Source of the DNA: the human T2T-CHM13v2.0 reference genome, Homo sapiens
DNA length: 64,000 nt
Reading direction: 5' to 3' (one strand)
Assembly (NCBI RefSeq): GCF_009914755.1
Contig: NC_060933.1
In this document: positions 7,212-64,000 of the stretch, piece after piece
Layout: the number at the start of each line of letters is the position of its first letter
Numbering within the stretch: position 1 is the first letter of the stretch
Notes under the pieces: generated by a model
What the model saw: the letters and a program-made list of their open reading frames with translations, nothing else
What the model was told of the DNA's origin: nothing
Databases searched by the model: none
Program-made: the position numbers and the translations under genes

Positions 7212-7230
7212 ATTCCGTTCCATTGTACTC
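7201..7230. other. Strand-switch junction 1 (convergent G-rich strands)
   Basis: GGAATAAAC[CC]ATTCCGTTCCATTGTACTC; CC at 7210-7211 fits both orientations. Confidence 0.95.
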
Positions 7231-10200
7231 GGGTTGATTCCATTCCATTGCATTCCTTTCCATTCCATTCCATTCCATTCCATTCCAATCCATTCCATTC
7301 CGTTTCATTCCATTACATTCGGATTGATTCTATTCAACTCCCTTACTCTCCATTACATTCCATTCCATTCGGGTTGTTCCATTCCATTCCATTCCATTCC
7401 ACTCCATTCCATTGCACTCCGGTTGATTCCATTCCATTCCATTCCATTCCATTCGATTCCATTCCATTCCAATTCTTTCCATTCCATTCTATTCCGTACC
7501 ATGCCATTCCATTCCATACAATTCCATTCCATTCCATTCCACTCATTCCACTCCGTTCCGTTCCGTTCCGTTCCGTTCCATTCCATTCCATTCCATTCTA
7601 TTCGGGTTAATTCCATTCCATTCCATTCGATTGCAATCGAGTTGATTCCATTCCATTCCATTCCATTCCATTCCATTCCATTCCATTCCTTTCCATTCCA
7701 TTACGGATGATTCCATTCCATTGCATTCCATTCCATTCCATTCCCCTGTGCTCGGGTTGATTCCATTCCATTCCATTCCAATCCATGGCATTCCACTCGT
7801 GTTGATTCCATTCTTTCCATTCCATTCAAGTTGAATCCATTCCATTGCATTCCATTCCATTCGATTCCATTCGATTGCACTCGGGTTGATTCCATTCCAT
7901 TGCATTCCATTCCATTCGATTCCATTCCATTCCATTCCATTCCATTCCATTCCGTTCCATTCCATTCCATTACATTCGGATTGATTCTATTCAATTCCCT
8001 TACACTCCATTACATTCCATTCCATTCGGGTAGTTTCCATTCCATTCCATTCCATTCCTCTCCATTCCATTGCACTCGGGTTGATTCCATTCCATTCCAT
8101 TCCATTCAATTCCATTCCGTTCCATTCCATTCCATTACATTCGGATTGATTCTATTCAACTCCCTTACTCTCCATTACATTGCATTCCATTCGGGTTGTT
8201 CCATTCCATTCCATTCCATTCCACTCCATTCCATTGCACTCGGGTTTATTCCATTCCATTCCATTCCATTCCATTCCATTCCATTCCATTCCATTCCATT
8301 ACATTCGGATTGATTCTATTCAATTCCCTTACACTCCATTACATTCCATTCCATTCGGGTAGTTTCCACTCCATTCCATTCCATTCCGCTCCATTCTATT
8401 GCACTTGGGTTGATTCCATTCCATTCCATTCCATTCCATTCCATTCCATTCCATGCCATTCCATTCCATTCCATTCCGTTCCATTGTACTCGGGTTGATT
8501 CCATTCCATTGCATTCCATTCCATTCCATTCCATTCCATTCCATTCCGTTCCATTCCATTACATTCGGATTGATTCTATTCAACTCCCTAACTCTCCATT
8601 ACATTCCATTCCATTCGGGTTGTTCCATTCCATTCCATTCCATTCCACTCCATTCCATTGCACTCGGGTTGATTCCATTCCATTCCATTCCATTCAATTC
8701 CATTCCATTCCATTCCGGATGATTCCATTCCATTGCATTCCGTTCCATTACATTCCCCTGCACTCGGGTTGATTCCATTCCATTCCACTCCATTCCATTC
8801 GATTCCATTCCATTCCAATTCTTTCCATTCCATTCTATTCCGTAACATTCCATTCCATTCCATACAATTCCATTCCATTCCATTCCACTCCGTTCCGTTC
8901 CGTTCCGTTCCGTTCCATTCTATTCCATTCCATTCTATTCGGTTTAATTCCATTCCATTCCATTCCATTCCATTCTATTCCATTCCATTGCAATCGAGTT
9001 GAGTCCATTGCATTCCATTCCATTCCATTCCATTCCATTCCATTCCGGAAGATTCCATTCCATTGCATTCCATTCCATTCCATTCCATTCCATTCCATTC
9101 CATTCCATTCCATTCCATTGTACTCGGGTTGATTCCATTCCATTGCATTCCATTCCATTCCATTCCATTCCATTCCATTCCATTCCGTTCCATTCCATTC
9201 CATTACATTCAGATTGATTCTTTTCAACTCCCTTACTCTCCATTACATTCCATTCCATTCGGGTTGTTCCATTCCATTCCTTTCCATTCCACTCCATTCC
9301 ATTGCACTCGGGTTGATTCCATTCCATTCCATTCCATTCCATTCCGGATGATTCCATTCCATTGCATTCCGTTCCATTACATTCCCCTGCACTCGGGTTG
9401 ATTCCATTCCATTCCATTCCATTCCATTCCATTCCATTCCCCTGCACTCGCGTTGATTCCATTCCATTCCATTCCATTCCATTCCATTCCATTCCATTCC
9501 TTTCCATTCCAGTCCTTTCCATTCCATTCCACTCGGGTTGATTCCATTCTATTAGTTTCCATTCCATTCCATTACCTTCCATTCCACTGTAGTTGATTCC
9601 ATTCCTTTCCATTCCACTCGAATACGTTCCCTCCTATTCCACTCGGAACGATTCCATTCCATTCCATTCCATTCCATTCCATTCCATTCCATTCCATTCC
9701 ATTTCGTTGCATTCCATTCTATTCCGTATCATTCCATTCCATTCCATTCCATTCCATTCCATTCCACTCGTGTTGATTCCATTCCTTTCCATTCCTTTCG
9801 GTTTGAAGGCATTCCATTCCATTCCATTCCATTCCATTCCATTCCATTCCATTCCGTTCCATTCCATTCCATTACATTCGGATTGATTCTATTCAATTCC
9901 CTTACACTCCATTCCATTCCATTCCATTCGGGTAGTCTCCATTCCATTCCATTCCATTCCTCTCCATTCCATTGCACTCGGGTTGATTCCATTCCATTCC
10001 ATTCCATTCAATTCCATTCCGTTCCATTCCTTTCCATTACATTCGGATTGATTCTATTTAACTCCCTTACTCTCCATTACATTCCATTCCATTCGGGTTG
10101 TTCCATTCCATTCCATTCCATTCCACTCCATTCCATTGCACTCGGGTTTTTTCCATTCCATTCCATTCCATTCCATTCCATTCCATTCCATTCCGGAAGA

Positions 10201-12039
10201 TTCCATTCCATTGCATTCCATTCCATTCCATTCCCCTGAACTCGCGTTGATTCCATTCCATTCCATTCCTTTCCGTTCCATTCCATTCCATTCCATTCCA
10301 TTCCAATCCATTCCATTCCGTTCCGTTCCGTTCCATTCCATTCCATTCCATTCTATTCGGGTTAATTCCATTCCATTCCATTCGATTGCAATCGAGTTGA
10401 TTCCATTCCATTCTATTCCATTCCATTCCATTCCATTCCATTCCATTCCTTTCCATTCCATTACGGATGATTCCATTCCATTGCATTCCATTCCATTCCA
10501 TTCCCATGTACTCGGGTTGATTCCATTCCATTCCATTCCAATCCATGCCATTCCACTCGTGTTGATTCCATTCTTTCCATTCCATTCAAGTTGAATCCAT
10601 TCCATTGCATTTAATTCCATTCCATTCCCCTGCACTCACGTTGATTCCATTCCATTCCATTCCATCTCATTCCATTCCGTACCGTTCCATTCCATTCCGT
10701 TCCATTCCGTTCCGTTCCATTCCATTCCATTCCATTCTATTCGGGTTAATTCCATTCCATTCCATTCGATTGCAATCGAGTTGATTCCATTCCATTCCAT
10801 TCCATTCCATTCCATTCCATTCCATTCCTTTCCATTCCATTACGGATGATTCCATTCCATTGCATTCCATTCCATTCCATTCCCCTGTACTCGGGTTGAT
10901 TCCATTCCATTCCATTCCAATCCATGGCATTCCACTCGTGTTGATTCCATTCTTTCCATTCCATTCAAGTTGAATCCATTCCATTGCATTCCATTCCATT
11001 CGATTCCATTCGATTGCACTCGGGTTGATTCCATTCCATTGCATTCCATTCCATTCGATTCCATTCCATTCCATTCCATTCCATTCCATTCCGTTCCATT
11101 CCATTCCATTACATTCGGATTGATTCTATTCAATTCCGTTACACTCCATTACATTCCATTCCATTCGGGTAGTTTCCATTCCATTCCATTCCATTCCTCT
11201 CCATTCCATTGCACTCGGGTTGATTCCATTCCATTCCATTCCATTCAATTCCATTCCGTTCCATTCCATTCCATTACATTCGGATTGATTCTATTCAACT
11301 CCCTTACTCTCCATTACATTCCATTCCATTCGGGTTGTTCCATTCCATTCCATTCCATTCCACTCCATTCCATTGTACTCGGGTTTATTCCATTCCATTC
11401 CATTCCATTCCATTCCGTTCCGTTCCATTCCATTCCATTCCATTCTATTCGGGTTAATTCCATTCCATTCCATTCCATTCCATTCCAATCGAGTTGATTC
11501 CATTCCATTCCATTCCATTCCATTCCACTCCATTCCAGTCCTTTCCATTCCATTCCACTCGGGTTGATTCCAATGTATTCCTTTCCATTCCATTTCATTC
11601 CATTGCAATCGAGTTGATTCCATTGCTTTGCATTCCATTCCTTTCCATTCCATTCCGGATGATTCCATTCCATTGCATTCCATTCCATTCCATTCTCCTG
11701 CACTCGGGTTGATTCCATTCCATTCCACTCCATTCCATTCCATTCCATTCCATTCCATTGTATTCGGGTTAATTCCATTCCATTGCATTCCATTCCATTC
11801 CATTCCATTACAATCGAGTTGATTCCATTCCATTCCATTCCATTCCAATCCTTTCCATTCCATTCCACTTGGGTTGATTCCATTCTATTAGTTTCCATTC
11901 CATTCCATTCCCTTCCATTCCACTCTGGTTGATACCTTTCCTTTCCATTCCACTCGAATACATTCCCTCCTATTCCACTCGGAACGATTCCATTCCATTC
12001 CATTCCATTCCATTCCATTCCATTCCATTCCATTCCATT

Positions 12040-15000
12040 CCATTGTACTCGGGTTGATTCAATTCCATTGCATTCCATTCCATTCCATTCCATTCCATTC
12101 CGTTGCATTCCATTCCATTACTTTCGGATTCATTCTATTCAACTCCCTTACTCTCCATTACATTCCATTCCATTCGGGTTGTTCCATTCCATTCCATTCC
12201 ATTCCACTCCATTCCATTGCACTCGGGTTGATTCCATTCCATTCCATTCCATTCCATTCCATTCCGGATGATTCCATTCCATTGCATTCCGTTCCATTAC
12301 ATTCCCCTGCACTCGCGTTGATTCCATTCCATTCCATTCCATTCCATTCAATTACATTCCATTACAATTCGTTCGATTCCATTCTATTCCCTACCATTCC
12401 ATTCCATTCCATACCCTTCCATTCCATTCCATTCCATTCCATTCCGTTCCATTCCGTTCCATTCCATTCCATTCCATTCTATTCGGATTAATTCCATTCC
12501 ATTCCATTCCATTCCATTCTATTCCATTCCATTGCAATCGAGTTGAATCCATTGCATTTCATTCCATTCCATTCCATTCCATTCCATTCCGGAAGATTCC
12601 ATTCCATTGCATTCCATTCCATTCCATTCCTCTGCACTCGCGTTGATTCCATTCCATTCCAATCCATTCCATTCCATTCCATTCCATTCCATTCCGTTCC
12701 GTTCCATTCCATTCCACTCCATTCCATTCCATTCCGTTCCGTTCCATTCCATTCCATTCCATTCTATTCGGGTTAATTCCATTCCATTCCATTCGATTGC
12801 AATCGAGTTGATTCCATTCCATTCCATTCCATTCCATTCCATTCCTTTCCATTCCATTACGGATGATTCCATTCCATTGCATTCCATTCCATTCCATTCC
12901 CCTGTCCTCGGGTTGATTCCATTCCATTCCATTCCAATCCATGCCATTCCACTCGTGTTGATTCCATTCTTTCCATTCCATTCAAGTTGAATCCATTCCA
13001 TTGCATTCCATTCCATTCGATTCCATTCGATTGCACTCGGGTTGATTCCATTCCATTGCATTCCATTCCATTCCATTCCATTCCATTCCATTCCATTCCG
13101 TTTCATTCCATTACTTTCGGATTGATTCTATTCAATTCCCTTACACTCCATTACATTCCATTCCATTCGGGTAGTTTCCATTCCATTCCATTCCATTCCT
13201 CTCCATTCCATTGCAGTCGGGTTGATTCCATTCCATTGCATTCCATTCCATTCCATTCAATTCCATTCCGTTCCATTCCATTCCATTACATTCGGATTGA
13301 TTCTATTCAACTCCCTTACTCTCCATTACATTCCATTCCATTCGGGTTGTTCCATTCCATTCCATTCCATTCCACTCCATTCCATTGCACTCGGGTTGAT
13401 TCCATTCCATTCCATTCCATTCCATTCCATTCCATTCCATTCCATTGCATTCCATTCCATTGCATTCCATTCCATTCCATTCCCCTGCACTCGCGTTGAT
13501 TCCATTCCATTCCATTCCATTCTATTCCATTCCATTCCATTCCATTCCATTCCATTCCATTCCATTCCGTTCCGTTCCATTCCATTCCATTCCATTCCAT
13601 TCCAATCCATTCCATTCCGTTCCGTTCCGTTCCATTCCATTCCATTCCATTCTATTTGGTTTAATTCCATTCCATTCCATTCGATTGCAATCGAGTTGAT
13701 TCCATTCCATTCCATTCCATTCCATTCCATTCCATTCCTTTCCATTCCATTACGGATGATTCCATTCCATTGCATTCCATTCCATTCCATTCCCCTGTAC
13801 TCGGGTTGATTCCATTCCATTCCATTCCAATCCATGCCATTCCACTCGTGTTGATTCCATTCTTTCCATTCCATTCAAGTTGAACCCATTCCATTGCATT
13901 CCATTCCATTCCATTCCCCTGCAGTCTGGTTGTTTCCATTCCATTCCATTCCATTCCGTTCCGTTCCATTCCATTCCATTCCATTCTATTCGGGTTAATT
14001 CCATTCCATTCCATTCCATTCCATTCCGTTCCATTCCATTCCATTCCATTCTATTCGGGTTAATTCCATTCCATTCCATTCCATTGCATTCCAATCGAGT
14101 TGATTCCATTCCATTCCATTCCATTCCAGTCCATTCCAGTCCTTTCCATTCCATTCCACTCGGGTTGATTCCAATGTATTCCTTTCCATTCCATTCCATT
14201 CCATTGCAATCGAGTTGATTCCATTGCTTTGCATTCCATTCCATTCCATTCCATTCCATTCCGGATGATTCCATTCCATTGCATTCCATTCCATTCCATT
14301 CCCCAGCACTCGGGTATATTCCATTCCATTCCATTCCATTCCATTCCATTCCATTCCATTTCGTTCCATTCCATTCTATTCCGTATCATTCCATTCCATT
14401 CCATTCCATTCCATTCCATTCCATTCCACTCCATTCCATTCCATTGTACTCGGGTTGATTCAATTCCATTGCATTCCATTCCATTCCATTCCATTCCATT
14501 CCGTTGCATTCCATTCCATTACTTTCGGATTCATTCTATTCAACTCCCTTACTCTCCATTACATTCCATTCCATTCTGGTTGTTCCATTCCATTCCATTC
14601 CATTCCACTCCATTCCATTGCACTCGGGTTGATTCCATTCCATTCCATTCCATTCCATTCCATTCCGGATGATTCCATTCCATTGCATTCCTTTCCATTA
14701 CATTCCCCTGCACTCGCGTTGATTCCATTGCATTCCATTCCATTACATTCAATTCCATTCCATTTCAATTCGTTCCATTCCATTCTATTCCGTACCATTC
14801 CATTCCATTCCATACAATTCCATTCCATTCCATTCCATTCCATTCCGTTCCATTCCGTTCCATTGCATTCCATTCCATTCTATTCGGATTAATTCCATTC
14901 CATTCCATTCCATTCCATTCTATTCCATTCCATTGCAATCGAGTTGACTCCATTGCATTTCATTCCATTCCATTCCATTCCATTCCATTCCGGAAGATTC

Positions 15001-15780
15001 CATTCCATTGCATTCCATTCCATTCCATTCCCCTGCACTCGCGTTGATTCCATTCCATTCCATTCCATTCCGTTCCGTTCCATTCCATTCCATTCCATTC
15101 CATTCCGTTCCGTTCCATTCCATTCCATTCCATTCTATTCGGGTTAATTCCATTCCATTCCATTCGATTGCAATCGATTTGATTCCATTCCATTCCATTC
15201 CACTCCATTCCATTCCATTCCATTCCATTCCTTTCCATTCCATTACGGTTGATTCCATTCCATTGCATTCCATTCCATTCCATTCCCCTGTACTCGGGTT
15301 GATTCCATTCCATCCCATTCCAATCCATGCCATTCCACTCGTGTTGATTCCATTCTTTCCATTCCATTCAAGTTGAATCCATTCCATTGCATTCCATTCC
15401 ATTCGATTCCATTTGATTGCACTCGGGTTGATTCCATTCCATTGCATTCCATTCCATTCCATTCCATTCCATTCCATTCCGTTCCATTCCATTCCATTAC
15501 ATTCGGATTGATTCTATTCAATTCCCTTACACTCCATTACATTCCATTCGGGTAGTTTCCATTGCATTCCATTCCATTTCTCTACATTCCATTGCACTCG
15601 GGTTGATTCCATTCCATTGCATTCCATTCCATTCCATTCAATTCCATTCCGTTCCATTCCATTCCATTACATTCGAATTGATTCTATTCAACTCCCTTAC
15701 TCTCCATTACATTCCATTCCATTCGGGTTGTTCCATTCCATTCCATTCCATTCCACTCCATTCCATTGCAATCGGGTTGA
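12040..15780 (-). repeat. ~1.3-kb block duplicated at ~2.4-kb offset (about 12040-13400 and 14440-15780)
   Basis: Shared rare variants GGGTTGATTCAATTCC (~12051/14452), CTTTCGGATTCATTC (12121/14522), ATTCGGATTAATT (12481/14882). Confidence 0.75.
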
Positions 15781-17879
15781 TTCCATTCAATTCCATTCCA
15801 TTCCATTCCATTCCATTCCGGAAGATTCCATTCCATTGCATTCCATTCCATTCCATTCTCCTGCACTCGCGTTGATTCCATTCCATTCCATTCTATTCCA
15901 TTCCATTCCCTTCCTTTCCTTTCCATTCCATTCCATTCCATTCCATTCCATTCCGTTCCGTTCCGTTCCATTCCATTCCATTCCATTCTATTCGGGTTAA
16001 TTCCACTCCATTCCATTCGATTGCAATCGAGTTGATTCCATTCCATTCCATTCCATTCCATTCCATTCCATTCCTTTCCATTCCATTACGGATGATTCCA
16101 TTCCATTGCATTCCATTCCATTCCATTCCGCTGTACTCGGGTTGATTCCATTCCATTACATTCCAATCCATGGCATTCCACTCGTGTTGATTCCATTCTT
16201 TCCATTCCATTCAAGTTGAATCCATTCCATTGCATTCCATTCCATTCGATTCCATTCGATTGCACTCGGGTTGATTCCATTCCACTGCATTCCATTCCAT
16301 TCCATTCCATTCCATTCCATTCCATTCCATTCCATTCCATTCCGTTCCATTCCATTCCATTACATTCGGATTGATTCTATTCAATTCCCTTAGACTCCAT
16401 TACATTCCATTCCATTCGGGTAGTTTCCATTCCATTCCATTCCATTTCTCTCCATTCCATTGAACTCGGGTTGATTCCATTCCATTCCATTCCATTCCAT
16501 TCCATTCAATTCCATTCCGTTCCATTCCATTCCATTACATTCGGATTGATTCTATTCAACTCCCTTACTCTCCATTACATTCCATTCCATTCGGGTTGTT
16601 CCATTCCATTCCATTCCATTTCACTCCATTCCATTGCACTCGGGTTTATTCCATTCCATTCCATTCCATTCCATTCCATTCCATTCCATTCCATTCCGGA
16701 AGATTCCATTCCATTGCATTCCATTCCATTCCATTGCCCTGCACTCGCGTTGATTCCATTCCATTCCATTCCATTCCATTCCATTCCATTCCATTCCTTT
16801 CCGTTCCATTCCATTCCATTCCATTCCAATCCATTCCATTCCGTTCCGTTCCATTCCATTCCATTCCATTCCATTCTATTCGGGTTAATTCCATTCCATT
16901 CCGTTCGATTGCAATCGAGTTGATTCCATTCCATTCCATTCCATTCCATTCCATTCCTTTCCATTCCATTACGGATAATTCCATTCCATTGCATTCCATT
17001 CCATTCCATTCCTCTGTACTCGGGTTGATTCCATTCCATTCCATTCCAATCCATGCCATTCCACTCGTGTTGATTCCATTCTTTCCATTTCATTCAAGTT
17101 GAATCCATTCCTTTGCATTCCATTCCATTCCATTCCCCTGCAGTCGGGTTGTTTCCATTCCATTCCATTCCATTCCCCTGCTGTCGGGTTGTTTCCATTC
17201 CATTCCATTCCATTCCATTCCATTCCATTCCATTCCGTTCCGTTCCATTCCATTCCATTCCATTCTATTCGGTTTAATTCCATTCCATTCCATTCCATTT
17301 TATTCCATTCCATTCCAATCGAGTTGATTCCATTCCATTCCATTCCATTCCATTCCACTCCATTCCAGTCCTTTCCATTCCATTCCACTCGGGTTGATTC
17401 CAATGTATTCCTTTCCATTCCATTCCATTCCATTGCAATCGAGTTGATTCCATTGCTTTGCATTCCATTCCATTCCATTCCATTCCGGATGATTCCATTC
17501 CATTGCATTCCATTCCATTCCATTCCCCTGCACTCGGGTTGATTCCATTCCATTCCACTCCATTCCGTTCCATTCCATTCCATTGCATTGTATTCGGGTT
17601 AATTCCATTCCATTCCATTCCATTCCATTCCATTCCATTCCAGTCCTTTCCATTCCATTCCACTCGGGTTGATTCCATTCTATTAGTTTCCTTTCCATTC
17701 CATTCCCTTCCATTCCACTCTGGTTGATTCCATTCCTTTCCATTCCACTCGAATACATTCCCTCCTATTCCACTCGGAACGATTCCATTCCATTCCATTC
17801 CATTCCATTCCATTCCATTCCATTCCATTCCATTCCATTTCGTTCCATTCCATTCTATTCCGTGTCCTTCCATTCCATT

Positions 17880-20800
17880 CCATTCCATTCCATTCCCCTG
17901 CAGTCGGGTTGTTTCCATTCCATTCAATTCCCTTCCATTCCATTCCATTCCATTCCATTCCGATCCGTTCCATTCCATTCCATTCCATTCTATTCGGGTT
18001 AATTCCATTCCATTCCATTCCATTCCATTCCATTCCATTCCATTCCAATCGAGTTGATTCCATTCCATTCCATTCCATTCCATTCCAGTCCATTCCAGTC
18101 CTTTCCATTCCATTCCACTCGGGTTGATTCCAATGTATTCCTTTCCATTCCATTCCATTCCATTGCAATCGAGTTGATTCCATTGCTTTGCATTCCATTC
18201 CATTCCTTTCCATTCCGGATGATTCCATTCCATTGCATTCCATTCCATTCCATTCCTCTCCATTCCATTGCACTCGGGTTGATTCCATTCCATTCCATTC
18301 CATTCCATTCCATTCCATTCCATTACATTACATTACATTACATTCCGTTCCTTTGTACTCGGGATGATTCCATTCCATTGCATTCCATTCCATTCCATTC
18401 CATTCCATTCCATTCCCTTCCATTCCATTCCGTTCCATTCCATTACATTCGGATTGATTCAATTCAACTCCCTTACTCTCCATTACATTCCATTCCATTC
18501 GGGTTGTTCCATTCCATTCCATTCCATTCCACTCCATTCCATTGCGCTCGGGTTGATTCCATTCCATTCCATTCCATTCCATTCCATTCCATTCCATTCC
18601 GGATGATTCCATTCCATTGCATTCCGTCCCATTACATTCCCTTGCACTCGGGTTGATTCCATTCCATTCCATTCCATTCCATTCGATTCCATTCCATTCC
18701 AATTCTTTCCATTCCATTCTATTCCGTACCATTCCATTCCATTCCATACAATTCCATTCCATTCCATTCCACTCCGTTCCGTTCCTTTCCGTTCTGTTCC
18801 GTTCCATTCCATTCCATTCCATTCTATTCGGTTTAATTCCATTCCATTCCATTCCATTCCATTCCATTCTATTCCATTCCATTGCAATCGAGTTGAATCC
18901 ATTGCATTCCATTCCATTCCATTCCATTCCATTCCGGAAGATTCCATTCCATTGCATTCCATTCCATTCCATTCCATTCCATTCTATTCCATTCCATTGT
19001 ACTCGGGTTGATTCCATTCCATTGCATTCCATTCCATTCCATTCCATTCCGTTCCATTCCATTCCATTACATTCGGATTGATTCTTTTCAACTCCCTTAC
19101 TCTCCATTACATTCCATTCCATTCGGGTTGTTCCATTCCATTCCATTCCATTCCACTCCATTCCATTGCACTCGGGTTGATTCCATTCCATTCCATTCCG
19201 GATGATTCCATTCCATTGCATTCCGTTCCATTACATTCCCCTGCACTCGGGTTGATTCCATTCCATTCCTTTCCATTCCATTCGATTCCATTCCATTCCC
19301 CTGCACGCGCGTTGATTCCATTCCATTCCATTCCATTCCATTCCATTCCATTCCATTCCATTCCATTCCTTTCCGTTCCATTCCATTCCATTCCATTCCA
19401 TTCCGTTCCGTTCCATACCATTCCATTCCATTCTATTCGGGTTAATTCCATTCCATTCCATTCGATTGCAATCGAGTTGATTCCATTCCATTCCATACCA
19501 TTCGATTGCAATCGAGTTGATTCTATTCCATTCCATTACATTCCATTCCATTCCAGTCCTTTCCATTCCTTTCCATTCCATTACTGATGATTCCATTCTA
19601 TTGCATTCCATTCCATTCCATTCCCCTGTACTCGGGTTGATTCCATTCCATTCCATTCCAATCCATGCCATTCCACTCGTGTTGATTCCATTCTTTCCTT
19701 TCCATTCAAGTTGAATCCATTCCATTGCATTCCATTCCATTCGATTCCATTCGATTGCACTCGGGTTGATTCCATTCCATTGCATTCCATTCCATTCCAT
19801 TCCATTCCGTTCCATTCCATTTCATTACATTCAGATTGATTCTATTCCATTCCCTTACACTCCAATATATTCCAATCCATTCTGGTTGTTTCCATTCCAT
19901 TCCATTCCATTTCACTCCATTCCATTGCACTCGGGTTGATTCCATTCCATTCCATTCCATTGCATTCCATTCCATTCCATTCCGGATGATTCCATTCCAT
20001 TGCATTCCATTCCATTCAATTCCCCTGCACTCGGGTTGATTCCATTTCATTCCATTCCATTACATTCCGTTCCATTCCATTCCATTCCATTCGGATTGAT
20101 TCTATTCAATTCCCTTACGCTCCATTACATTCCATTCCATTCGGTTAGTTTCCATTCCATTCCATTCCATTCCTCTCCATTCCATTGCACTCAGGTTGAT
20201 TCCATTCCATTCCATTCCATTCCATTCCATTCCATTCCATTACATTACATTCCATTCCGTTCCATTGTACTCGGGTTGATTCCATTCCATTGCATTCCAT
20301 TCCATTCCATTCCATTCCATTCCATTCCATTCCATTCCATTCCATTCCGTTCCATTCCATTACATTCGGAGTGATTCTATTCAACTCCCTTACTCTCCAT
20401 TACATTCCATTCCATTCGGGTTGTTCCATTCCATTCGATTCCATTCCACTCCATTCCATTCCATTCCATTCCACTCCATTCCATTGCACTCGGGTTTATT
20501 CCATTCCATTCCATTCCATTCCATTCCATTCCATTCCGTTCCATTCCGGAAGATTCCATTCCATTGCATTCCATTCCATTCCATTCCCCTGCACTCGCTT
20601 TGATTCCATTCCATTCCATTCCATTCCATTTCATTCCATTCCTTTCCGTTCCATTCCATTCCATTCCGTTCCGTTCCGTTCCATTCCATTCCATTCCATT
20701 CTATTCGGGTTAATTCCATTCCATTCCATTCGATTGCAATCGAGTTGATTCCATTCCATTCCATTCCATTCCATTCCATTCCATTCCATTCCATTCCTTT

Positions 20801-28440: not shown

Positions 28441-28470
28441 ATTCCATTCCATTCCGTGTGCAATGGAATG
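28441..28470. other. Strand-switch junction 2 (divergent G-rich strands)
   Basis: ATTCCATTCCATT[CC]GTGTGCAATGGAATG; the right side is a truncated GAACCCGTGTGCAAT motif; CC at 28454-28455 is shared. Confidence 0.95.
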
Positions 28471-41720: not shown

Positions 41721-41911
41721 TGGAATGGAATGGAATTAACCCGAATAGAATGGAATGGAATGGAATGGAATGGAACGGAACGGAACGGAACGGAACGGAA
41801 TGGAATGGAATGGAACGGAAAGGAATGGAATGGAATGGAATGGAATGGAATGGAATGGAATGGAATCAACGCGAGTGCAGGGGAATGGAATGGAATGGAA
41901 TGCAATGGAAT

Positions 41912-41926
41912 GGAAGCTTCCGGAAT
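41912..41926. promoter_or_regulatory. HSE variant GGAAGCTTCCGGAAT containing a HindIII site
   Basis: GGAAG-CTTCC-GGAAT keeps the nGAAn/nTTCn/nGAAn pattern; AAGCTT at 41914-41919. Confidence 0.55.
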
Positions 41927-50900: not shown

Positions 50901-52310
50901 GTGGAATGGCATGGAATGGAATGCAATGGAATGGAATGGAATGGAATCAACTCGAGTGGAAAGGAATGGAATGGAATGGAAAGGAATGGAATGAAGTCAA
51001 CTCGAGTGGAATGGAATGGAATGGAATGGATTGGAATGGATTGCAATGGAATGAAATGGAATGGAATGGAATGGAATCAATCATTCCGAGTGGAATGGAA
51101 GGGAATGTAATGGAGTGGAAAGAAGGGAATGGAATCAACCCGAGTGGAATGCAAGGCAATGGAATGGAATGGAAAGGAATGGAATGGAATCAACACGATT
51201 GCAATGGAATGGAATGGAATGGAATGGAATGGAATGGAATTAACCGGAATAGAATGGAATGGAATGGAATGGAAGGGAATGGAATGGAACGGAACGGAAT
51301 GGAATGGAGTGGAATGGAATGGAATCAACGCGAGTGCAGGGGAATGGAATGGAATGGAATGCAATGCAATGGAAACTTCCGGAATGGAATGGAATGGAAT
51401 GGAATGAAATGCAATGGATTCAACTCGATTGCAATGGAATGGAATAGAATGGAATGGAATGGAATGGAATGGAATTAATCCGAATAGAATGGAATGGAAT
51501 GGAATGGAACGGAATGGAACGGAATGGAATGGAATGGAATGGAATGGAATGGTATGGAATGGAATGGAATGGTACGGAATAGAATGGAATGGAACGAATT
51601 GTAATGGAATGGAATTGAATGGAATGGAATGGAATGGAATGGAATCAACGCGAGTGCAGGGGAATGTAATGGAACGGAATGCAATGGAATGGAATCATCC
51701 GGAATGGAATGGAATGGAATGGAATGGAATGGAATGGAATGGAATGGAATCAACCCGAGTGCAATGGAATGGAGTGGAATGGAATGGAATGGAATGGAAC
51801 AACCCGAATGGAATGGAATGTAATGGAGAGTAAGGGAGTTGAATAGAATCAATCCGAATGTAATGGAATGGAATGCAACGGAATGGAATGGAAAGGAATG
51901 GAATGGAATGCAATGGAATGGAATCAACCCGAGTACAATGGAATGGAATGGAATGGAATGGAATGGAATGGAATGGAATGGAATGATACGGAATAGAATG
52001 GAATGGAACGAAATGGAATGGAATGGAATGGAATGGAATGGAATGCAATGGAATGGAATGGAATGGAATGGAATGGAATCGTTCCGAGTGTAATAGGAGG
52101 GAATGTATTCGAGTGGAATGGAAAGGAATGGAATCAACCAGAGTGGAATGGAAGGGAATGGAATGGAAACTAATAGAATGGAATCAACCCGAGTGGAATA
52201 GAATGGAAAGGACTGGAATGGAATGGAATGGAATGGAATCAACTCGTTTGTAATGGAATGGAATGGAATGGAATGGAATGGAATGGAATGGAATGGAATG
52301 GAATGGAATG

Positions 52311-53960
52311 GAATTAACCCGAATACAATGGAAGGGAATGGAATGGAATGGAAACTAATAGAATGGAATCAACCTGAGTGGAATGGAATGGAAAGGACTG
52401 GAATGGAATAGAATGGAATGGAATGGAATCAACTCGATTGTAATGGAATGGAATGGAATGGAATGGAATGGAATGGAGTGGAATGGAATGGAGTGGAATG
52501 GAATGGAATCAACCCGAGTGCAGGGGAATGGAATGGAATGGAATGCAATGGAATGGAACCATCCGGAATGGAATGGAATGGAATGGAATGCAAAATAATG
52601 GAATCATCTCGATTGCAATGGAATGGAATGGAATAGAATGGAATGGAATTAACACGAATAGAATGGAATGTAATGGAATTGAATGGAACAGAAAGGAATG
52701 GAATGGAATGGAATGGAATGGAATGGAATCGAATGGAATGGAGTGGAATTAACCGGAATAGAATGGAATGGAATGGAATGGAACGGAATGAAATGGAATG
52801 GAATGGAATGGAATGGAATGGAATCAACCCGAGTGCAGGGGAATGGAATGGAATGGAATGCAATGGAATTAACCCGAATACAATGGAAGGGAATGGAATG
52901 GAATGGAAACTAATAGAATGGAATCAACCTGAGTGGAATGGAATGGAAAGGACTGGAATGGAATAGAATGGAATGGAATGGAATCAACTCGATTGTAATG
53001 GAATGGAATGGAATGGAATGGAATGGAATGGAGTGGAATGGAATGGAATCAACCCGAGTGCAGGGGAATGGAATGGAATGGAATGCAATGGAATGGAACC
53101 ATCCGGAATGGAATGGAATGGAATGGAATGCAAAATAATGGAATCATCTCGATTGCAATGGAATGGAATGGAATAGAATGGAATGGAATTAACACGAATA
53201 GAATGGAATGTAATGGAATTGAATGGAACAGAAAGGAATGGAATGGAATGGAATGGAATGGAATGGAATCGAATGGAATGGAGTGGAATTAACCGGAATA
53301 GAATGGAATGGAATGGAATGGAACGGAATGAAATGGAATGGAATGGAATGGAATGGAATGGAATGGAATGGAATCAACCCGAGTGCAGGGGAATGGAATG
53401 GAATGGAATGGAATGCAATGGAATTAACCCGAATACAATGGAAGGGAATGGAATGGAATGGAAACTAATAGAATGGAATCAACCTGAGTGGAATGGAATG
53501 GAAAGGACTGGAATGGAATAGAATGGAATGGAATGGAATCAACTCGATTGTAATGGAATGGAATGGAATGGAATGGAATGGAATGGAGTGGAATGGAATG
53601 GAATCAACCCGAGTGCACGGGAATGGAATGGAATGGAATGCAATGGAATGGAACCATCCGGAATGGAATGGAATGGAATGGAATGCAAAATAATGGAATC
53701 ATCTCGATTGCAATAGAATGGAATGGAATAGAATGGAATGGAATTAACACGAATAGAATGGAATGTAATGGAATTGAATGGAACAGAAAGGAATGGAATG
53801 GAATGGAATGGAATGGAATGGAATCGAATGGAATGGAGTGGAATTAACCGGAATAGAATGGAATGGAATGGAATGGAACGGAATGAAATGGAATGGAATG
53901 GAATGGAATGGAATGGAATCAACCCGAGTGCAGGGGAATGGAATGGAATGGAATGCAATG
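52311..53960 (+). repeat. Three tandem copies of a ~555-bp higher-order unit
   Basis: GAATTAACCCGAATACAATGGAAGGG at 52311, 52866 and 53421; GCAAAATAATGGAATCATCTCG at ~52590, 53130 and 53685. Confidence 0.92.
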
Positions 53961-56900
53961 GAATGGAATCATCCGGAATGGAATGGAATGGAATGGAATG
54001 CCATCAACCTGATGCAATGGAATGGAGTGGAATGGAATGGAATGGAAACATCCCGAATGGAATGGAATGCAATGGAGTGTAAGGGAATTGAATAGAATCA
54101 ATCCGAATGTAATGGAATGGAATGGAATGAAATGGAATGGAATGGAATGGAATGGAATCAACCCGAGTGCAATGGAATGGATTCGAATGGAATGGAATGG
54201 AATGGAATGGATTCAACAAGAATGGAATGGAAAGGAATGGAATCAACCCGAGTGTAATGGCATGGAATGGAACGGAATGGAATGGGATGGAATGGAATGG
54301 TATGGAATAGAATGGAATGGAATGAAATGGAATAGAATGGAATGGAATGGAATGGAATGGAATGAACCCGTGTGCAATGGAATGGAATGGAATGGAATGG
54401 AATGGATTCAACTCGAATGGAATCAACTCGATTGCAATGGAATGGAATGGAATTGAAAGGAATAGAATGGAATCAACCCGAGTGGAATGGAATGGAAAGG
54501 ACTGGAATGGAGTGGAATGGAATGGAATGGAATTAACCCGAATAGAATGAAATGGAACGGAATGGAATGGAATGTAATGGAATGGAATGGAATGGAATCA
54601 ACCCGAGTGCAGGGGAATGGAATGGAATGGAATGCAATGGAATGGAATCATCCGGAATGGAATGGAATGGAATTTAATGGAATGGAATGGAATCAACTCG
54701 ATTTCAATGGAAATGGAATGGAATAGAATGGAATGGAATTAACACGAATAGAATGGAATGGAATGGAATTGAATGGAACAGAAAGGAATGGAATGGAATG
54801 GAATGGAATCAACCCAAGTGCAGGAGAATGGAATGGAATGGAATTCAATGGAATGGAATCATCCGGAATGGAATGGAATGGAATGGAATGGAATGGAATG
54901 GAATGGAATCAACCCGAGTGCAATGGAATGGAGAGGAATGGAATGGAATGGAATGGAAACTACACGAATCGAATGGAATGTAATGGAGTGTAAGGGAATT
55001 GAATAGAATGAATCCGAATGGAATGGAATGGAAAGGAATGGAATGGAATGGAATGGAATGGAATGGAATGCAATGCCATGGAATCAACCCGAGTGCAATC
55101 GAATGGAATCGAATGGAATGGAATGCAATGGAATGGATTCAACTTGAATGGAATGGAAAGAATGGAATCAACACGAGTGGAATGGCATGGATTGGAATGG
55201 AATGGAATGGAATCAACCCGAGTACAGGGGAATGGAATGGAATGGAATGAAATGGAATGGAATCATCCGTAATGTAATGGAAAGGAATGGAATGGAATGG
55301 AATGGAATGGAATCAACTCTATTGCAATCGAATGGAATGGAATGGAATTAACCCGAATAGAATGGAATGGAATGGAATGGAATGGAATGGAACGGAACGG
55401 AACGGAACGGAACGGAATGGAATGGAATGGAATGGAATGGAATGCAATGGAATGGAATCAACTCGATTGCAATCGAATGGAATGGAATGGAATTAACCCG
55501 AATAGAATGGAATGGAATGGAATGGAATGGAATGGAACGGAACGGAACGGAACGGAATGGAATGGAATGGAATGGAATGGAATGGAATCAACTGATTGCA
55601 ATGGAATGGAATGGAATGGAATGGAATGGAATGGAATGGAATGGAATTAACCCGAATAGAATGGAATGGAATTAAATGGAACGGAACGGAATGGAATGGA
55701 ATGGAATGGAATGGAATGGAATGGAATGGAATCAACCCGACTGCAGGGGAATGGAATGGAATGGATTGCAATGGAATGGATTCAACTTGAATGGAATGGA
55801 AAGAATGGAATCAACACGAGTGGAATGGCATGAATTGGAATGGAATGGAATGGAATCAACCCGAGTACAGGGGAATGGAATGGAATGGAATGCAATGGAA
55901 TGGAATCATCCGTAATGGAATGGAAAGGAATGGAATGGAATGGAATGGAATGGAATGGAATGGAATGGAATCAACTCGATTGCAATGGAATGGAATGGAA
56001 TGGAATTAACCCAAATAGAATGGAATGGAATGGAATGGAACGGAACGGAACGGAATGGAATGGAATGGAATGGAATGGAATGGAACGGAAAGGAATGGAA
56101 TGGAACGGAATGGAATGGAATGGAATGGAATGGAATCAACGCGAGTGCAGGGGAATGGAATGGAATGGAATGCAATGGAATGGAATCTTCCGGAATGGAA
56201 TGGAATGGAATGGAATGGAATCAACCCGAGTGCAATGGAATGGAGTGGAATGGAATGGAATGGAATGGAACAACCCGAATGGAATGGAATGTAATGGAGA
56301 GTAAAGGAGTTGAATAGAATCATTCCGAATGTAATGGAATGGAATGGAACGGAATGGAATTGAATGGAATGGAATGGAATGCAATGGAATGGAATCAACC
56401 CGCGTGCAATGGAATGGAGAGGAATGGAATGGAATGGAATGGAAACTACCCGAATGGAATGGAATGTAATGGAGTGTAAGGGAATTGAATAGAATCAATC
56501 CGAATGTAATGGAATGGAATGGAACGGAATGGAATGGAATGGAATGGAATGGAATGGAATGGAATGGAATCAACCCGAGTGCAATCGAATGGAATCGAAT
56601 GGAATGCAATGCAATGGAATGGATTCAACTTGAATGGAATGGAAAGAATGGAATCAACACGAGTGGAATGGCATGGATTGGAATGGAATGGAATGGAATC
56701 AACCCGAGTACAGGGGAATGGAATGGAATGGAATGCAATGGAATGGAATCATCCGTAATGGAATGGAAAGGAATGGAATGGAATGGAATCAACTCGATTG
56801 CAATCGAATGGAATGGAATGGAATTAACCCAAATAGAATGGAATGGAATGGAATGGAACGGAACGGAATGGAATGGAATGGAATGGAATGGAATGGAACG

Positions 56901-59900
56901 GAACGGAACGGAACGGAACGGAATGGAATGGAATGGAATGGAAAGGAATCAACGCGAGTGCAGGGGAATGGAATGGAATGGAATGCAATGGAATGGAATC
57001 TTCCGGAATGGAATGGAATGGAATGGAATGGAATGGAATCAACCCGAGTGCAATGGAATGGAGTGGAATGGAATGGAATGGAATGGAACAACCCGAATTG
57101 AATGGAATGTAATGGAGAGTAAGGGAGTTGAATAGAATCAATCCGAATGTAATGGAATGGAATGGAACGGAATGGAATTGAATGGGATGGAATGGAATGC
57201 ATGGAATGGAGTCAACCCGAGTTCAACGGAATGGAGAGGAATGGAATGGAATGGAATGGAAACTACCCGAATGGAATGGAATGGAATGGAGTGTAAGGGA
57301 ATTGAATAGAATCAATCCGAATGTAATGTAATGGAATGGAATGGAATGGAATGGAATGGAATGGAATGGAATGGAATGCAATGGAATGGAATCAACCCGA
57401 GTGCAATCGAATGGAATCGAATGGAATGGAATGCAATGGAATGGATTCAACTTGAATGGAATGGAAAGAATGGAATCAACACGAGTGGAATGGCATGGAT
57501 TGGAATGGAATGGAATGGAATCAACCAGAGTACAGGGGAATGGAATGGAATGGAATGCAATGGAATGGAATCATCCGTAATGGAATGGAAAGGAATGGAA
57601 TGGAATGGAATGGAATGGAATGGAATGGAATGGAATGGAATCAACTCGATTGCAATCGAATGGAATGGAATGGAATTAACCCGAATAGAATGGAATGGAA
57701 TGGAATGGAATGGAACGGAACGGAATGGAATGGAATGGAATGGAACGGAACGGAATGGAATGGAATGGAATGGAATGGAATCAACGCGAGTGCAGGGGAA
57801 TGGAATGGAATGGAATGCAATGGAATGGAAACTTCCGGAATGGAATGGAATGGAATGGAATGGAATGGAATGGAATGGAATGGAATGCAATCAACCCGAC
57901 TGCAGGGGAATGGAATGGAATGGAATGGAATGGAATGGAATGGAATCATCCGGAACGGAATGGAATGGAATGGATTGGAATCAAATCGATTGCAATGGAA
58001 TGGAATGGAATGGAATGGAATCGAATGGAATGGAGTGGAATTAACCGGAATAGAATGGAATGGAATGGAATGGAACGGAATGAAATGGAATGGAATGGAA
58101 TGGAATGGAATGGAATCAACCCGAGTGCAGGGGAATGGAATGGAATGGAATGCAATGGAATGGAATCATCCGGAATGGAATGGAATGGAATGGAATGCAA
58201 TCAACCTGATGCAATGGAATGGAGTGGAATGGAATGGAATGGAATGGAAACATCCCGAATGGAATGGAATGTAATGGAGTGTAAGGGAATTGAATAGAAT
58301 CAATCCGAATGTAATGGAATGGAATGGAATGGAATGGAATCAACCCGAGTGCAATGGAATGGATTCGAATGGAATGGAATGGAATGGAATGGATTCAACA
58401 AGAATGGAATGGAAAGGAATGGAATCAACCCGAGTGTAATGGCATGGAATGGAACGGAATGGAATGGGATGGAATGGAATGGTATGGAATAGAATGGAAT
58501 GGAATGAAATGGAATAGAATGGAATGGAATGGAATGCAATGGAATGAACCCGTGTGCAATGGAATGGAATGGAATGGAATGGAATGGATTCAACTCGAAT
58601 GGAATCAACTCGATTGCAATGGAATGGAATGGAATTGAAAGGAATAGAATGGAATCAACCCGAGTGGAATGGAATGGAAAGGACTGGAATGGAGTGGAAT
58701 GGAATGGAATGGAATTAACCCGAATAGAATGAAATGGAACGGAATGGAATGGAATGTAATGGAATGGAATGGAATGGAATCAACCCGAGTGCAGGGGAAT
58801 GGAATGGAATGGAATGCAATGGAATGGAATCATCCGGAATGGAATGGAATGGAATGGAATGGAATGGAATGGAATCAACTCGATTTCAATGGAAATGGAA
58901 TGGAATAGAATGGAATGGAATTAACACGAATAGAATGGAATGGAATGGAATTGAATGGAACAGAAAGGAATGGAATGGAATGGAATGGAATCAACCCAAG
59001 TGCAGGGGAATGGAATGGAATGGAATTCAATGGAATGGAATCATCCGGAATGGAATGGAATGGAATGGAATGGAATGGAATGGAATGGAATGGAATGGAA
59101 TCAACCCGAGTGCAATGGAATGGAGAGGAATGGAATGGAATGGAATGGAAACTACACGAATCGAATGGAATGTAATGGAGTGTAAGGGACTTGAATAGAA
59201 TGAATCCGAATGGAATGGAATGGAAAGGAATGGAATGGAATGGAATGGAATGGAATGCAATGCCATGGAATCAACCCGAGTGCAATCGAATGGAATCGAA
59301 TGGAATGGAATGCAATGGAATGGATTCAACTTGAATGGAATGGAAAGAATGGAATCAACACGAGTGGAATGGCATGGATTGGAATGGAATGGAATGGAAT
59401 CAACCCGAGTACAGGGGAATGGAATGGAATGGAATGAAATGGAATGGAATCATCAGTAATGTAATGGAAAGGAATGGAATGGAATGGAATGGAATCAACT
59501 CTATTGCAATCGAATGGAATGGAATGGAATTAACCCGAATAGAATGGAATGGAATGGAATGGAATGGAACGGAACGGAACGGAACGGAACGGAATGGAAT
59601 GGAATGGAATGGAATGGAATGGAATGCAATGGAATCAACTGATTGCAATGGAATGGAATGGAATGGAATGGAATGGAATGGAATGGAATCAACCCGACTG
59701 CAGGGGAATGGAATGGAATGGATTGCAATGGAATGGATTCAACTTGAATGGAATGGAAAGAATGGAATCAACACGAGTGGAATGGCATGGATTGGAATGG
59801 AATGGAATGGAATCAACCCGAGTACAGGGGAATGGAATGGAATGGAATGCAATGGAATGGAATCATCCGTAATGGAATGGAAAGGAATGGAATGGAATGG

Positions 59901-62900
59901 AATGGAATGGAATGGAATGGAATGGAATCAACTCGATTGCAATGGAATGGAATGGAATGGAATTAACCCAAATAGAATGGAATGGAATGGAATGGAACGG
60001 AACGGAACGGAATGGAATGGAATGGAATGGAATGGAATGGAACGGAAAGGAATGGAATGGAACGGAATGGAATGGAATGGAATGGAATGGAATCAACGCG
60101 AGTGCAGGGGAATGGAATGGAATGGAATGCAATGGAATGGAATCTTCCGGAATGGAATGGAATGGAATGGAATGGAATCAACCCGAGTGCAATGGAATGG
60201 AGTGGAATGGAATGGAATGGAATGGAACAACCCGAATGGAATGGAATGTAATGGAGAGTAAAGTAGTTGAATAGAATCATTCCGAATGTAATGGAATGGA
60301 ATGGAACGGAATGGAATTGAATGGAATGGAATGGAATGCAATGGAATGGAATCAACCCGAGTGCAATGGAATGGAGAGGAATGGAATGGAATGGAATGGA
60401 AACTACCCGAATGGAATGGAATGTAATGGAGTGTAAGGGAATTGAATAGAATCAATCCGAATGTAATGGAATGGAATGGAACGGAATGGAATGGAATGGA
60501 ATGGAATGGAATGGAATGGAATCAACCCGAGTGCAATCGAATGGAATCGAATGCAATGCAATGCAATGGAATGGATTCAACTTGAATGGAATGGAAAGAA
60601 TGGAATCAACACGAGTGGAATGGCATGGATTGGAATGGAATGGAATGGAATCAACCCGAGTACAGGGGAATGGAATGGAATGGAATGCAATGGAATGGAA
60701 TCATCCGAAATGGAATGGAAAGGAATGGAATGGAATGGAATCAACTCGATTGCAATCGAATGGAATGGAATGGAATTAACCCAAATAGAATGGAATGGAA
60801 TGGAATGGAACGGAACGGAATGGAATGGAATGGAATGGAATGGAATGGAACGGAACGGAACGGAACGGAATGGAATGGAATGGAATGGAATGGAAAGGAA
60901 TCAACGCGAGTGCAGGGGAATGGAATGGAATGGAATGCAATGGAATGGAATCTTCCGGAATGGAATGCAATGGAATGGAATGGAATGGAATGGAATCAAC
61001 CAGAGTGCAATGGAATGGAGTGGAATGGAATGGAATGGAATGGAAAAACCCTAATTGTATGGAATGTAATGGAGAGTAAGGGAGTTGAATAGAATCAATC
61101 CGAATGTAATGGAATGGAATGGAACGGAATGGAATTGAATGGAATGGAATGGAATGCATGGAATGGAATCAACCCGAGTTCAACGGAATGGAGAGGAATG
61201 GAATGGAATGGAATGGAAACTACCCGAATGGAATGGAATGGAATGGAGTGTAAGGGAATTGAATAGAATCAATCCGAATGTAATGGAATGGAATGGAACG
61301 GAATGGAATGGAATGGAATGGAATGGAATGGAATGGAATGGAATGGAATGGAATGCAATGGAATGGAATCAACCCGAGTGCAATCGAATGGAATCGAATG
61401 GAATGGAATGCAATGGAATGGATTCAACTTGAATGGAATGGAAAGAATGGAATCAACACGAGTGGAATGGCATGGATTGGAATGGAATGGAATGGAATCA
61501 ACCCGAGTACAGGGGAATGGAATGGAATGGAATGCAATGGAATGGAATCATCCGTAATGGAATGGAAAGGAATGGAATGGAATGGAATGGAATGGAATGG
61601 AATCAACTCGATTGCAATCGAATGGAATGGAATGGAATTAACCCGAATAGAATGGAATGGAATGGAATGGAACGGAACGGAATGGAATGGAATGGAATGG
61701 AATGGAATGGAACGGAAAGGAAGGGAATGGAATGGAATAGAATGGAATGGAATGGAATCAACGCTAGTGCAGGGGAATGGAATGGAATGGAATGCAATGG
61801 AATGGAATCTTCCGGAATGGAATGGAATGGAATGGAATGGAATGGAATGGAATGGAATCAACCCTAGTGCAATGGAATGGAGTGGAATGGAATGGAATGG
61901 AATGGAACAACCCGAATGGAATGGAATGTAATGGAGAGTAAGGGAGTTGAATAGAATCAATCCGAATGTAATGGAATGGAATGGAACGGAATGGAATTGA
62001 ATGGAATGGAATGGAATGCAATGGAATGGAATCAACCCGAGTGCAATGGAATGGAGAGGAATGGAATGGAATGGAATGGAAACTACCCGAATGGAATGGA
62101 ATGTAATGGAGTGTAAGGGAATTGAATAGAATCAATCCGAATGTAATGGAATGGAATGGAAAGGAATGGAATGGAATGGAATGGAATGGAATGGAATGGA
62201 ATGGAATGCAATGGAATGGAATCAACCCGAGTGCAATCGAATGGAATCGAATGGAATGGAATGCAATGGAATGGATTCAACTTGAGTGGAATGGAAAGAA
62301 TGGAATCAACACGAGTGGAATGGTATGGATTGGAATGGAATGGAATGGAATCAACCCGAGTACAGGGGAATGGAATGGAATGGAATGCAATGGAATGGAA
62401 TCATCCGTAATGGAATGGAAAGGAATGGAATGGAATGGAATGGAATGGAATGGAATGGAATGGAATGGAATGGAATCAACTCGATTGCAATCGAATGGAA
62501 TGGAATGGAATTAACCCGAATAGAATGGAATGGAATGCAATGGAACGGAACGGAATGGAATGGAATGGAATGGAACGGAACGGAATGGAATGGAATGGAA
62601 TGGAATGGAATCAACGCGAGTGCAGGGGAATGGAATGGAATGGAATGCAATGGAATGGAAACTTCCGGAATGGAATGGAATGGAATGGAATGGAATGGAA
62701 TGGAATGGAATGGAATCAACCCGACTGCAGGGGAATGGAATGGAATGGAATGGAATCATCCGGAACGGAATGGAATGTAATGGAATGGAATCAAATCGAT
62801 TGCAATGGAATGGAATGGAATGGAATGGAATCGAATGGAATGGAGTGGAATTAACCGGAATAGAATGGAATGGAATGGAATGGAACGGAATGAAATGGAA

Positions 62901-64000
62901 TGGAATGGAATGGAATGGAATGGAATCAACCCGAGTGCAGGGGAATGGAATGGAATGGAATGCAATGGAATGGAATCATCCGGAATGGAATGGAATTTAA
63001 TGGAATGCAATCAACCTGATGCAATTGAATGGAGTGGAATGGAATGGAATGGAATGGAAACATCCCGAATGGAATGGAATGTAATGGAGTGTAAGGGAAT
63101 TGAATAGAATCAATCCGAATGTAATGGAATGGAATGGAATGAAATGGAATGTAATGGAATAGAATGGAATCAACCCGAGTGCAATGGAATGGATTCGAAT
63201 GGAATGGAATGGAATGGAATGGATTCAACAAGAATGGAATGGAAAGGAATGGAATCAACCCGAGTGTAATGGCATGGAATGGAACGGAATGGAATGGGAT
63301 GGAATGGAATGGTATGGAATAGAATGGAATGGAATGAAATGGAATAGAATGGAATGGAATGGAATGGAATGGAATGAACCCGTGTGCAATGGAATGGAAT
63401 GGAATGGAATGGATTCAACTCGAATGGAATCAACTCGATTGCAATGGAATGGAATGGAATTGAAAGGAATAGAATGGAATCAACCCGAGTGGAATGGAAT
63501 GCAAAGGACTGGAATGGAGTGGAATGGAATGGAATGGAATTAACCCGAATAGAATGAAATGGAACGGAATGGAATGAAATGTAATGGAATGGAATGGAAT
63601 GGAATCAACCCGAGTGCAGGGGAATGGAATGGAATGGAATGCAATGGAATGGAATCATCCGGAATGGAATGGAATGGAATGAAATGGAATGGAATGGAAT
63701 CAACCCGACTGCAGGGGAATGGAATGGAATGGAATGCAATGGAATGGATTCAACTTGAATGGAATGGAAAGAATGGAATCAACACGAGTGGAATGGCATG
63801 GATTGGAATGGAATGGAATGGAATCAACCCGAGTACAGGGGAATGGAATGCAATGGAATGAAATGGAATGGAATCATCCGTAATGTAATGGAAAGGAATG
63901 GAATGGAATGGAATGGAATCAACTCTATTGCAATCGAATGGAATGGAATGGAATTAACCCGAATAGAATGGAATGGAATGGAATGGAATGGAACGGAACG
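53810..64000 (+). repeat. ~4.2-4.8-kb higher-order repeat, two full copies plus a partial third
   Basis: CAACCTGATGCAAT (54005/58202/63012), GGAAACATCCCG (54044/58246/63056), GATTCAACAAG (54210/58392/63222), GCAATGCCATGG (55070/59257), CAACTGATTGC (55589/59635), GAATGCATGG (~57195/61152). Confidence 0.88.

What the first reader, a model, noticed from the sequence alone, without database searches (positions are those of the whole stretch)
7212..64000. Subfamily mirror symmetry (A B | B A) around junction 2: the inverted block is not a simple in-place inversion
Seen: reading outward from 28455 in G-rich orientation, both arms give dialect B first (~4.5 kb left, ~10.5 kb right) and then dialect A. 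Junction 1 joins A to A and junction 2 joins B to B. Flipping 7212-28455 back would create two new A/B joins and would not restore the motifs cut at either junction. Inference: this fits an inverted duplication or template switch between like-dialect sequence, or a large decayed palindromic B-A superunit, better than one cut-and-flip event.
Basis: partly seen in the sequence, partly recalled or inferred. Interest (0 to 1): 0.7.

Follow-up and report, generated by a model that had tools for sequence, protein, structure and literature searches.

The report
Old inversion scar copied 85 times
The mirror pattern is real, but the strand-switch at its centre is one of 85 near-identical copies spread through a giant chromosome 9 satellite array, so it is likely an old inversion scar that was copied along with its neighbouring sequence, not a rearrangement that happened here.

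Summary
In this chr9 HSat3 window a distinct dialect B spans 23,966-38,953 (4.5 kb left, 10.5 kb right of junction 2), and flipping 7212-28455 back restores nothing. The block is not one event. Junction 2 occurs 85 times and junction 1 22 times across 52-76 Mb. Five junction sequences make up 196 of 204 catalogued strand switches, and they pair with each other in every combination. B is a halo around junction-2 copies: 61 of 69 held-out kilobases within 5 kb, 0 of 51 beyond 15 kb. The arms are not a palindrome. They match at background level from the junction, and B lengths and B/A borders differ between copies. Best model: a few old breakpoints, passively amplified and reshuffled. More than 200 switches were already reported; I did not find their reduction to five founders in the papers I could search. 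B also lacks the heat-shock-element-like motif that A carries at about 0.6 per kb.

The parts
1..7211 (+). Dialect A HSat3, G-rich strand on +; the nearest catalogued divergent junction lies about 106 kb upstream (J3/J5 family)
7199..7221 (.). Junction 1 (J1), convergent, A|A, cut after AAACCC, 2-bp overlap; 20 exact copies plus 2 variants on chr9
7212..23965 (-). Dialect A, G-rich strand on -
23966..28455 (-). Dialect B, left arm of junction 2 (4.5 kb)
28447..28467 (.). Junction 2 (J2), divergent, B|B, cut before GTGTGC; 85 copies on chr9 52.3-76.4 Mb, both orientations
28456..38953 (+). Dialect B, right arm of junction 2 (10.5 kb); no GAAnnTTCnnGAA motif in the whole 15-kb B island
34798..35438 (+). 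Un-inverted module that is the closest relative (1.5%) of the left arm's start (27810-28440, inverted); a second collinear pair is 36597-37331 with 26331-27081 (1.9%); a third, out of order, is 30460-31210 with 24002-24727 (1.0%)
30685..34528 (+). 1.9-kb tandem duplication (1.0% apart) that lengthens the right B arm in this copy
38954..64000 (+). Dialect A, G-rich on +, with small B-like patches; the next catalogued switch (J9 family) is 733 kb past junction 2

Best explanation
Junction 2 is one of 85 near-identical copies of a single strand-switch sequence in the chromosome 9 HSat3 array, each copy read sitting in a halo of dialect B, so the A B | B A mirror is likely an old breakpoint formed once inside B-type sequence and then copied and reshuffled. 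SHOWN: five junction sequences (J2 85, J9 43, J4 29, J1 22, J3/5 17) make up 196 of 204 catalogued switches; they face each other in all side combinations over blocks of 1-733 kb; J2 copies share a core of about 0.4-0.9 kb and differ beyond it; some copies sit in multi-megabase direct duplications. INFERRED: (1) the founding event was a template switch or inverted duplication within one B domain, leaving a spacer of at least 1 kb; (2) tandem and segmental duplication or unequal exchange multiplied the junctions; (3) homologous exchange between inverted copies flipped and re-paired segments without making new junction sequences, which is why 7212-28455 has unrelated ends; (4) A expanded or replaced sequence away from junctions while B survived next to J2, with exchanges setting a different B/A border in each copy.
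For: J2 21-mer: 85 of 86 genome matches on chr9, control pattern 0; 39 of 40 scored 201-bp hits at 97-100% identity. J1: 20 of 20 on chr9. Catalogue 102 divergent and 102 convergent, 18 more implied, in line with '>200 breakpoints'. J2's left side faces J1 15, J4 23, J9 30 times; its right side 23, 25, 25 times. The J1-J2 arrangement seen here recurs 10 times at 8.2-21.7 kb, beside 28 other J1-J2 facings. J2 cores differ by 0-3.4%, J1 by 0.6-3.7%. B bins in held-out DNA: 61/69 within 5 kb of J2, 16/60, 6/50, then 0/51 beyond 15 kb; 1 of 20 spot samples far from J2. Same-type junction pairs recur at offsets of 10.62-10.66 Mb (30 pairs) and 8.72-8.76 Mb (27 pairs); a recent multi-megabase duplication is in print. 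Switch number tracks array length across people, r = 0.90.
Against: Only 7 of 85 J2 copies were read on both sides, 3 of 17 J3/5, 5 of 22 J1, 2 of 29 J4 and 2 of 45 J9. The distance table rests on 8-9 related copies. At least 18 switches, and most of those in 49-52 Mb, are uncatalogued. The parent module for the left arm is present on the right arm in only 2 of 4 arm types tested. One spot sample at 49.2 Mb is mildly B-like without a J2 match. No other haplotype or ape sequence was available, so the order of events and the ages are inferred.
Confidence: 0.85

Rival explanations
1. A local inverted duplication or fold-back made a large B-A palindrome centred near junction 2, which has since decayed.
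For: Inverted homology at 1.5-1.9% over two collinear modules offset by 6.3-6.8 kb; the B island is centred near 31.5 kb, close to that axis.
Against: Homology covers about 2 kb, a third module is out of order, and nothing continues into A. B/A borders on the two arms align only at background (7.8-8.3%). Other J2 copies have other arm lengths and offsets (1.1 kb in one copy, no such module in two). The junction pre-exists in 84 other places.
Confidence: 0.07
2. The same junction forms again and again at a hotspot, by microhomology at interrupting motifs of B, so the copies are independent events.
For: Apparent overlaps of 6-8 bp at J3/5, J6 and J9 (3 of 8 junction types; chance of 6 bp or more is 0.06-0.09 per join).
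Against: Copies share the same two flanks for hundreds of bases at 97-100%, though the cut motif occurs dozens of times in the held sequence. J1 (2 bp) and J2 (4 bp) overlaps are within chance (P about 0.5 and 0.2).
Confidence: 0.04
3. J1 and J2 are the two ends of one event (simple inversion, or inverted insertion of a circle), later copied together.
For: Both cuts fall in the same register of the AACCC-G(A/T)GTGC motif; the J1-J2 facing seen here recurs 10 times.
Against: Neither flip-back nor the outer-flank rejoin gives a 12-mer found in 364 kb. The un-inverted allele of J2's right start is preceded by a B motif, not J1's A context. Copy numbers differ fourfold and partners are mixed.
Confidence: 0.03
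4. Assembly artefact.
For: Satellite arrays are hard to assemble.
Against: Copies carry graded divergence of 0-3.7%; independent assemblies report about 129 to hundreds of switches per haplotype.
Confidence: 0.01

Closest known systems
HSat3B5 array of chr9 with >200 inversion breakpoints (Altemose et al., bioRxiv 10.1101/2021.07.12.452052; passages read)
   Same: Same array; my catalogue (204 found, at least 222 implied) matches the order of magnitude.
   Different: The passages count breakpoints; they do not say that five sequences account for most, nor describe a dialect tied to one of them. The Science version, the supplements and the 2022 review were not available and may say so.
Strand switches scaling with array length (bioRxiv 10.64898/2026.07.22.740206; passages read)
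   Same: r = 0.90 with array length and 'byproducts of expansion' is what passive copying predicts.
   Different: That paper calls the switches stochastic and randomly placed; here they are copies of a few founders, not independent events.
9qh+ multi-megabase tandem HSat3 duplication of CHM13 (Nurk et al., PMC9186530; passages read)
   Same: Junction pairs recur at about 10.6 Mb offset, likely this duplication.
   Different: It explains only part: 41 J2 copies lie in 52.3-63.0 Mb and 19 beyond 71.4 Mb.
Fold-back inverted duplication / template switch (recalled from general knowledge)
   Same: J4, elsewhere in the array, has arms 3.7% apart with a 140-bp offset; J2's left arm has an offset inverted relative.
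   Different: J1 and J2 show no arm symmetry at the junction itself.

Membership tests
Human Satellite 3 | Enrichment of GGAAT pentamers in a large pericentromeric array | tested here: met
   4,827 GGAAT and 2,398 ATTCC in 64 kb; definition from PMC11526998
HSat3B5 subfamily | k-mer assignment to subfamily B5 | not testable with these tools
   Position fits the chr9 array named HSat3B5; the subfamily k-mer sets were not at hand, so whether dialect B would be assigned elsewhere is open
Simple two-breakpoint inversion | Flipping back restores ancestral sequence at both ends | tested here: not met
   0 occurrences of either restored join in 364 kb
Simple two-breakpoint inversion | The two junctions are unique and always paired | tested here: not met
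   85 versus 22 copies, all facings found
Fold-back palindrome | Arms are mirror copies outward from the centre | tested here: not met
   12.8% (J2) and 15.3% (J1) against a background of 11-12%
Inverted duplication with spacer (as founding event of J2) | One arm's nearest relative is an un-inverted parent nearby, with its own upstream flank | tested here: inconclusive
   Parent at 1.6-2.0% versus 4.4-7% for other paralogs, present in 2 of 4 right-arm types
Microhomology-mediated junction | Overlap longer than chance | tested here: inconclusive
   J1 2 bp and J2 4 bp within the null; 3 of 8 types at 6 bp or more
Passively amplified breakpoint | Many dispersed copies sharing both flanks, with graded divergence | tested here: met

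The most novel reading that the evidence does not exclude
The largest human satellite array is built from a handful of founder junctions, and the dominant one, J2 with its B halo, forms about 85 heat-shock-element-free islands at head-to-head strand switches that act as boundaries or start points for satellite III transcription or for array amplification, which would explain why one family supplies 83% of divergent switches while convergent ones come from several.
Probability: 0.12. Interest if true: 0.75.

Novelty: new variant of a known kind. Interest (0 to 1): 0.45.

Why it matters
It changes what '>200 inversion breakpoints' means: about five old events copied many times, not hundreds of inversions. 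The junction cores are alignable 0.8-kb markers in an array that is otherwise hard to align, so they allow a tree and a duplication history of 9q12 and a comparison across haplotypes and apes. The B halo lacks the GAAnnTTCnnGAA motif (0 in 63 kb within 4 kb of J2, against 0.5-0.56 per kb beyond 8 kb), which gives a direct test on HSF1 binding and stress transcription. The window's block itself is an ordinary member of this mosaic.

Tried and rejected
BLASTN self-comparison timed out and was replaced by token and k-mer chaining. Palindrome centred on J2 or J1: rejected. Palindrome centred at about 31.5 kb with a shared B/A border: rejected. Inverted insertion (outer flanks rejoin): rejected. 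Arm-to-arm conversion within a copy as the keeper of the mirror: no support; a left arm did not match its own right arm better than other copies' right arms. 'Divergent = B, convergent = A' as a rule: fails for J3/5 (A|A), J8 (B|A) and possibly J6 (last 500 bp B-like). Three generic patterns missed the commonest convergent family before one search found it; my early guess that the missing convergent switches were all unique was wrong. Literature: one search gave 0 papers; passages of PMC12637528, PMC12873891, PMC4022460 and 10.64898/2026.07.13.738322 said nothing on junction identity. Earlier scan findings could not be consulted.

Full report
Setting. The window is (GGAAT)n satellite throughout, inside the chr9 HSat3 array according to the hub's coordinates. 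It has two strand switches: J1, convergent, at 7211/7212, and J2, divergent, at 28455/28456. A, B and the J numbers beyond 1 and 2 are working labels, not published names.

Observation. PCA of G-oriented 12-mers and a matrix of shared rare 25-mers separate 24-39 kb from the rest. A classifier trained only on the inverted block of 21 bins of the right B arm B, and 0 of 40 bins in 1-7 kb and 39-52 kb. Trained on the window, it is bimodal on 200 kb of other parts of the array. Flip-back joins occur 0 times in 364 kb. Against a clean picture: A has sub-structure, and B-like patches occur near 54, 58 and 63 kb.

The junctions are multi-copy. The 201 bp around J2 hit 39 of 40 scored places at 97-100%. 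A 21-mer across J2 matches 86 times, 85 on chr9 between 52.3 and 76.4 Mb, in both orientations, control 0. J1 matches 20 times, plus 2 variants. Further searches gave divergent J3 (11) and J5 (6, counted from the rows), which share both arms and form one family. They also gave convergent J4 (29), J9 (45, counted from the 100 of 101 rows listed; 43 beyond 52.3 Mb, the 2 below were dropped) and 8 rarer ones. The catalogue has 102 divergent and 102 convergent switches; 18 same-kind neighbours imply at least 18 missed. Five families hold 196 of 204. J2 cores differ by 0-3.4% among 7 copies and J1 by 0.6-3.7% in 4 copies against the window.

The block is not a unit. J2's left side faces J1 15, J4 23, J9 30 and rare types 7 times; its right side 23, 25, 25 and 3 times. 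The facing seen here recurs 10 times at 8.2-21.7 kb. Same-type pairs recur at about 10.64 Mb (30 pairs) and 8.74 Mb (27 pairs). Beyond a core of 0.4-0.9 kb the arms of different J2 copies are mosaics; recent copies share up to 6 kb. Inference: exchange between inverted copies re-pairs junctions without making new ones.

B rides with J2. In 230 kb of held-out DNA, B bins number 61/69 within 5 kb of a J2, 16/60 at 5-10 kb, 6/50 at 10-15 kb and 0/51 beyond; 1 of 20 spot samples far from J2 (49.2 Mb) is mildly B. B extents run 0.4-13 kb on the left-arm side and 5-10 kb on the right-arm side in 7 copies. J3/5 is divergent yet A|A in 3 of 3 copies read. J8, a single copy, is convergent and B|A. J1, J4, J9 and J7 are A|A where read, but A is most of the array, so that is expected.

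Not a palindrome. The first 600 bp of the arms differ by 12.8% at J2 and 15.3% at J1; random pairs give 11-12%. Inverted homology exists only as 0.6-0.75-kb modules: two collinear at an offset of 6.3-6.8 kb and one out of order, 1.0-1.9% apart. B/A borders on the two arms are not homologous. The left arm's start is 1.6-2.0% from an un-inverted module that keeps its upstream flank, against 4.4-7% for other paralogs, about the distance between the two J2 clades (1.8%). That fits a founding inverted duplication inside B shortly before amplification, but the module is on the right arm in only 2 of 4 arm types. Apparent microhomology is 2 bp at J1 and 4 bp at J2, both within the simulated null; 3 of 8 junction types reach 6 bp or more, where the null gives 0.06-0.09 each (threshold chosen afterwards, about P 0.02 by hand).

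A functional difference. The motif GAAnnTTCnnGAA (heat-shock-element consensus, recalled) occurs 0 times in 15 kb of window B and 29 times in 49 kb of A; held-out, 1 in 83 kb against 78 in 137 kb. Without the classifier: 0 in 63 kb within 4 kb of J2, 0.31, 0.50 and 0.56 per kb further out, and 13 in 22 kb around J3/5. The nine J2 copies are related, so this is not nine independent tests. A figure legend of PMC11526998 reports HSF1 reads enriched where HSF1 motif density is high. Binding was not tested here.

Literature. Passages seen: Altemose preprint, over 200 breakpoints; Nurk, recent multi-megabase duplication and 'mosaic inversion structure'; 10.64898/2026.07.22.740206, switch number versus array length r = 0.90; 10.64898/2026.09.03.749043, about 129 switches per haplotype. 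Nine searches (listings and abstract starts) turned up no statement that the switches are copies of a few junctions or that a dialect surrounds one. The Science version, the 2022 review and the preprint supplements were not seen and may hold this, so novelty is provisional.

Verdict. Observation confirmed; interpretation partly supported. The mirror is most likely the inherited surroundings of one old, heavily copied breakpoint (confidence 0.85). Interest 0.45, mostly for the array-wide result rather than for this block.

Noticed in passing
L004 (chr9 52,936,698) and L006 (52,957,882): J4 (29 copies) looks like a true fold-back: arms 3.7% apart with a 140-bp offset, homology to about 1.1 kb. 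A similar un-inverted stretch appears in the window near 19.6-20.2 kb (by eye).
   Followed up: partly
L011-L014 (chr9 70.845-70.872 Mb): A 9.5-kb tandem duplication carries J1 and J2 together and leaves a G-rich block of only 1.1 kb; the next J2 is flanked by inverted J1 copies at 8.4 and 8.2 kb.
   Followed up: partly
window 54000-63600: 4.0-kb tandem duplication (0.7% apart) plus 4.8-kb and 9.0-kb offsets; holds the B-like patches.
   Followed up: partly
chr9 52,748,573-52,767,689 and 61,489,199-61,508,320 (L024): The outer flanks of the 19.1-kb block between J3 and J6 look contiguous with an overlap of about 45 bp, as for an inverted insertion; could be chance because the motif is common.
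   Followed up: no
chr9 49.2-52.0 Mb (L029-L036): Strand changes at least three times without a J2 match; two J9 copies lie there; 49.2 Mb shows a mix of A and B motifs, perhaps an older layer.
   Followed up: partly
C13 9.61, C14 3.08 and 5.58, C15 4.97, C22 5.96 Mb: One divergent HSat junction sequence is shared by four acrocentric chromosomes, the same copied-breakpoint pattern between chromosomes; C7 58.7-59.0 Mb also has paired inverted junction copies.
   Followed up: no
window 23966-38953 versus rest: B has fewer CpG (about 20.6 per kb) than A (about 26 per kb), also in held-out DNA.
   Followed up: no
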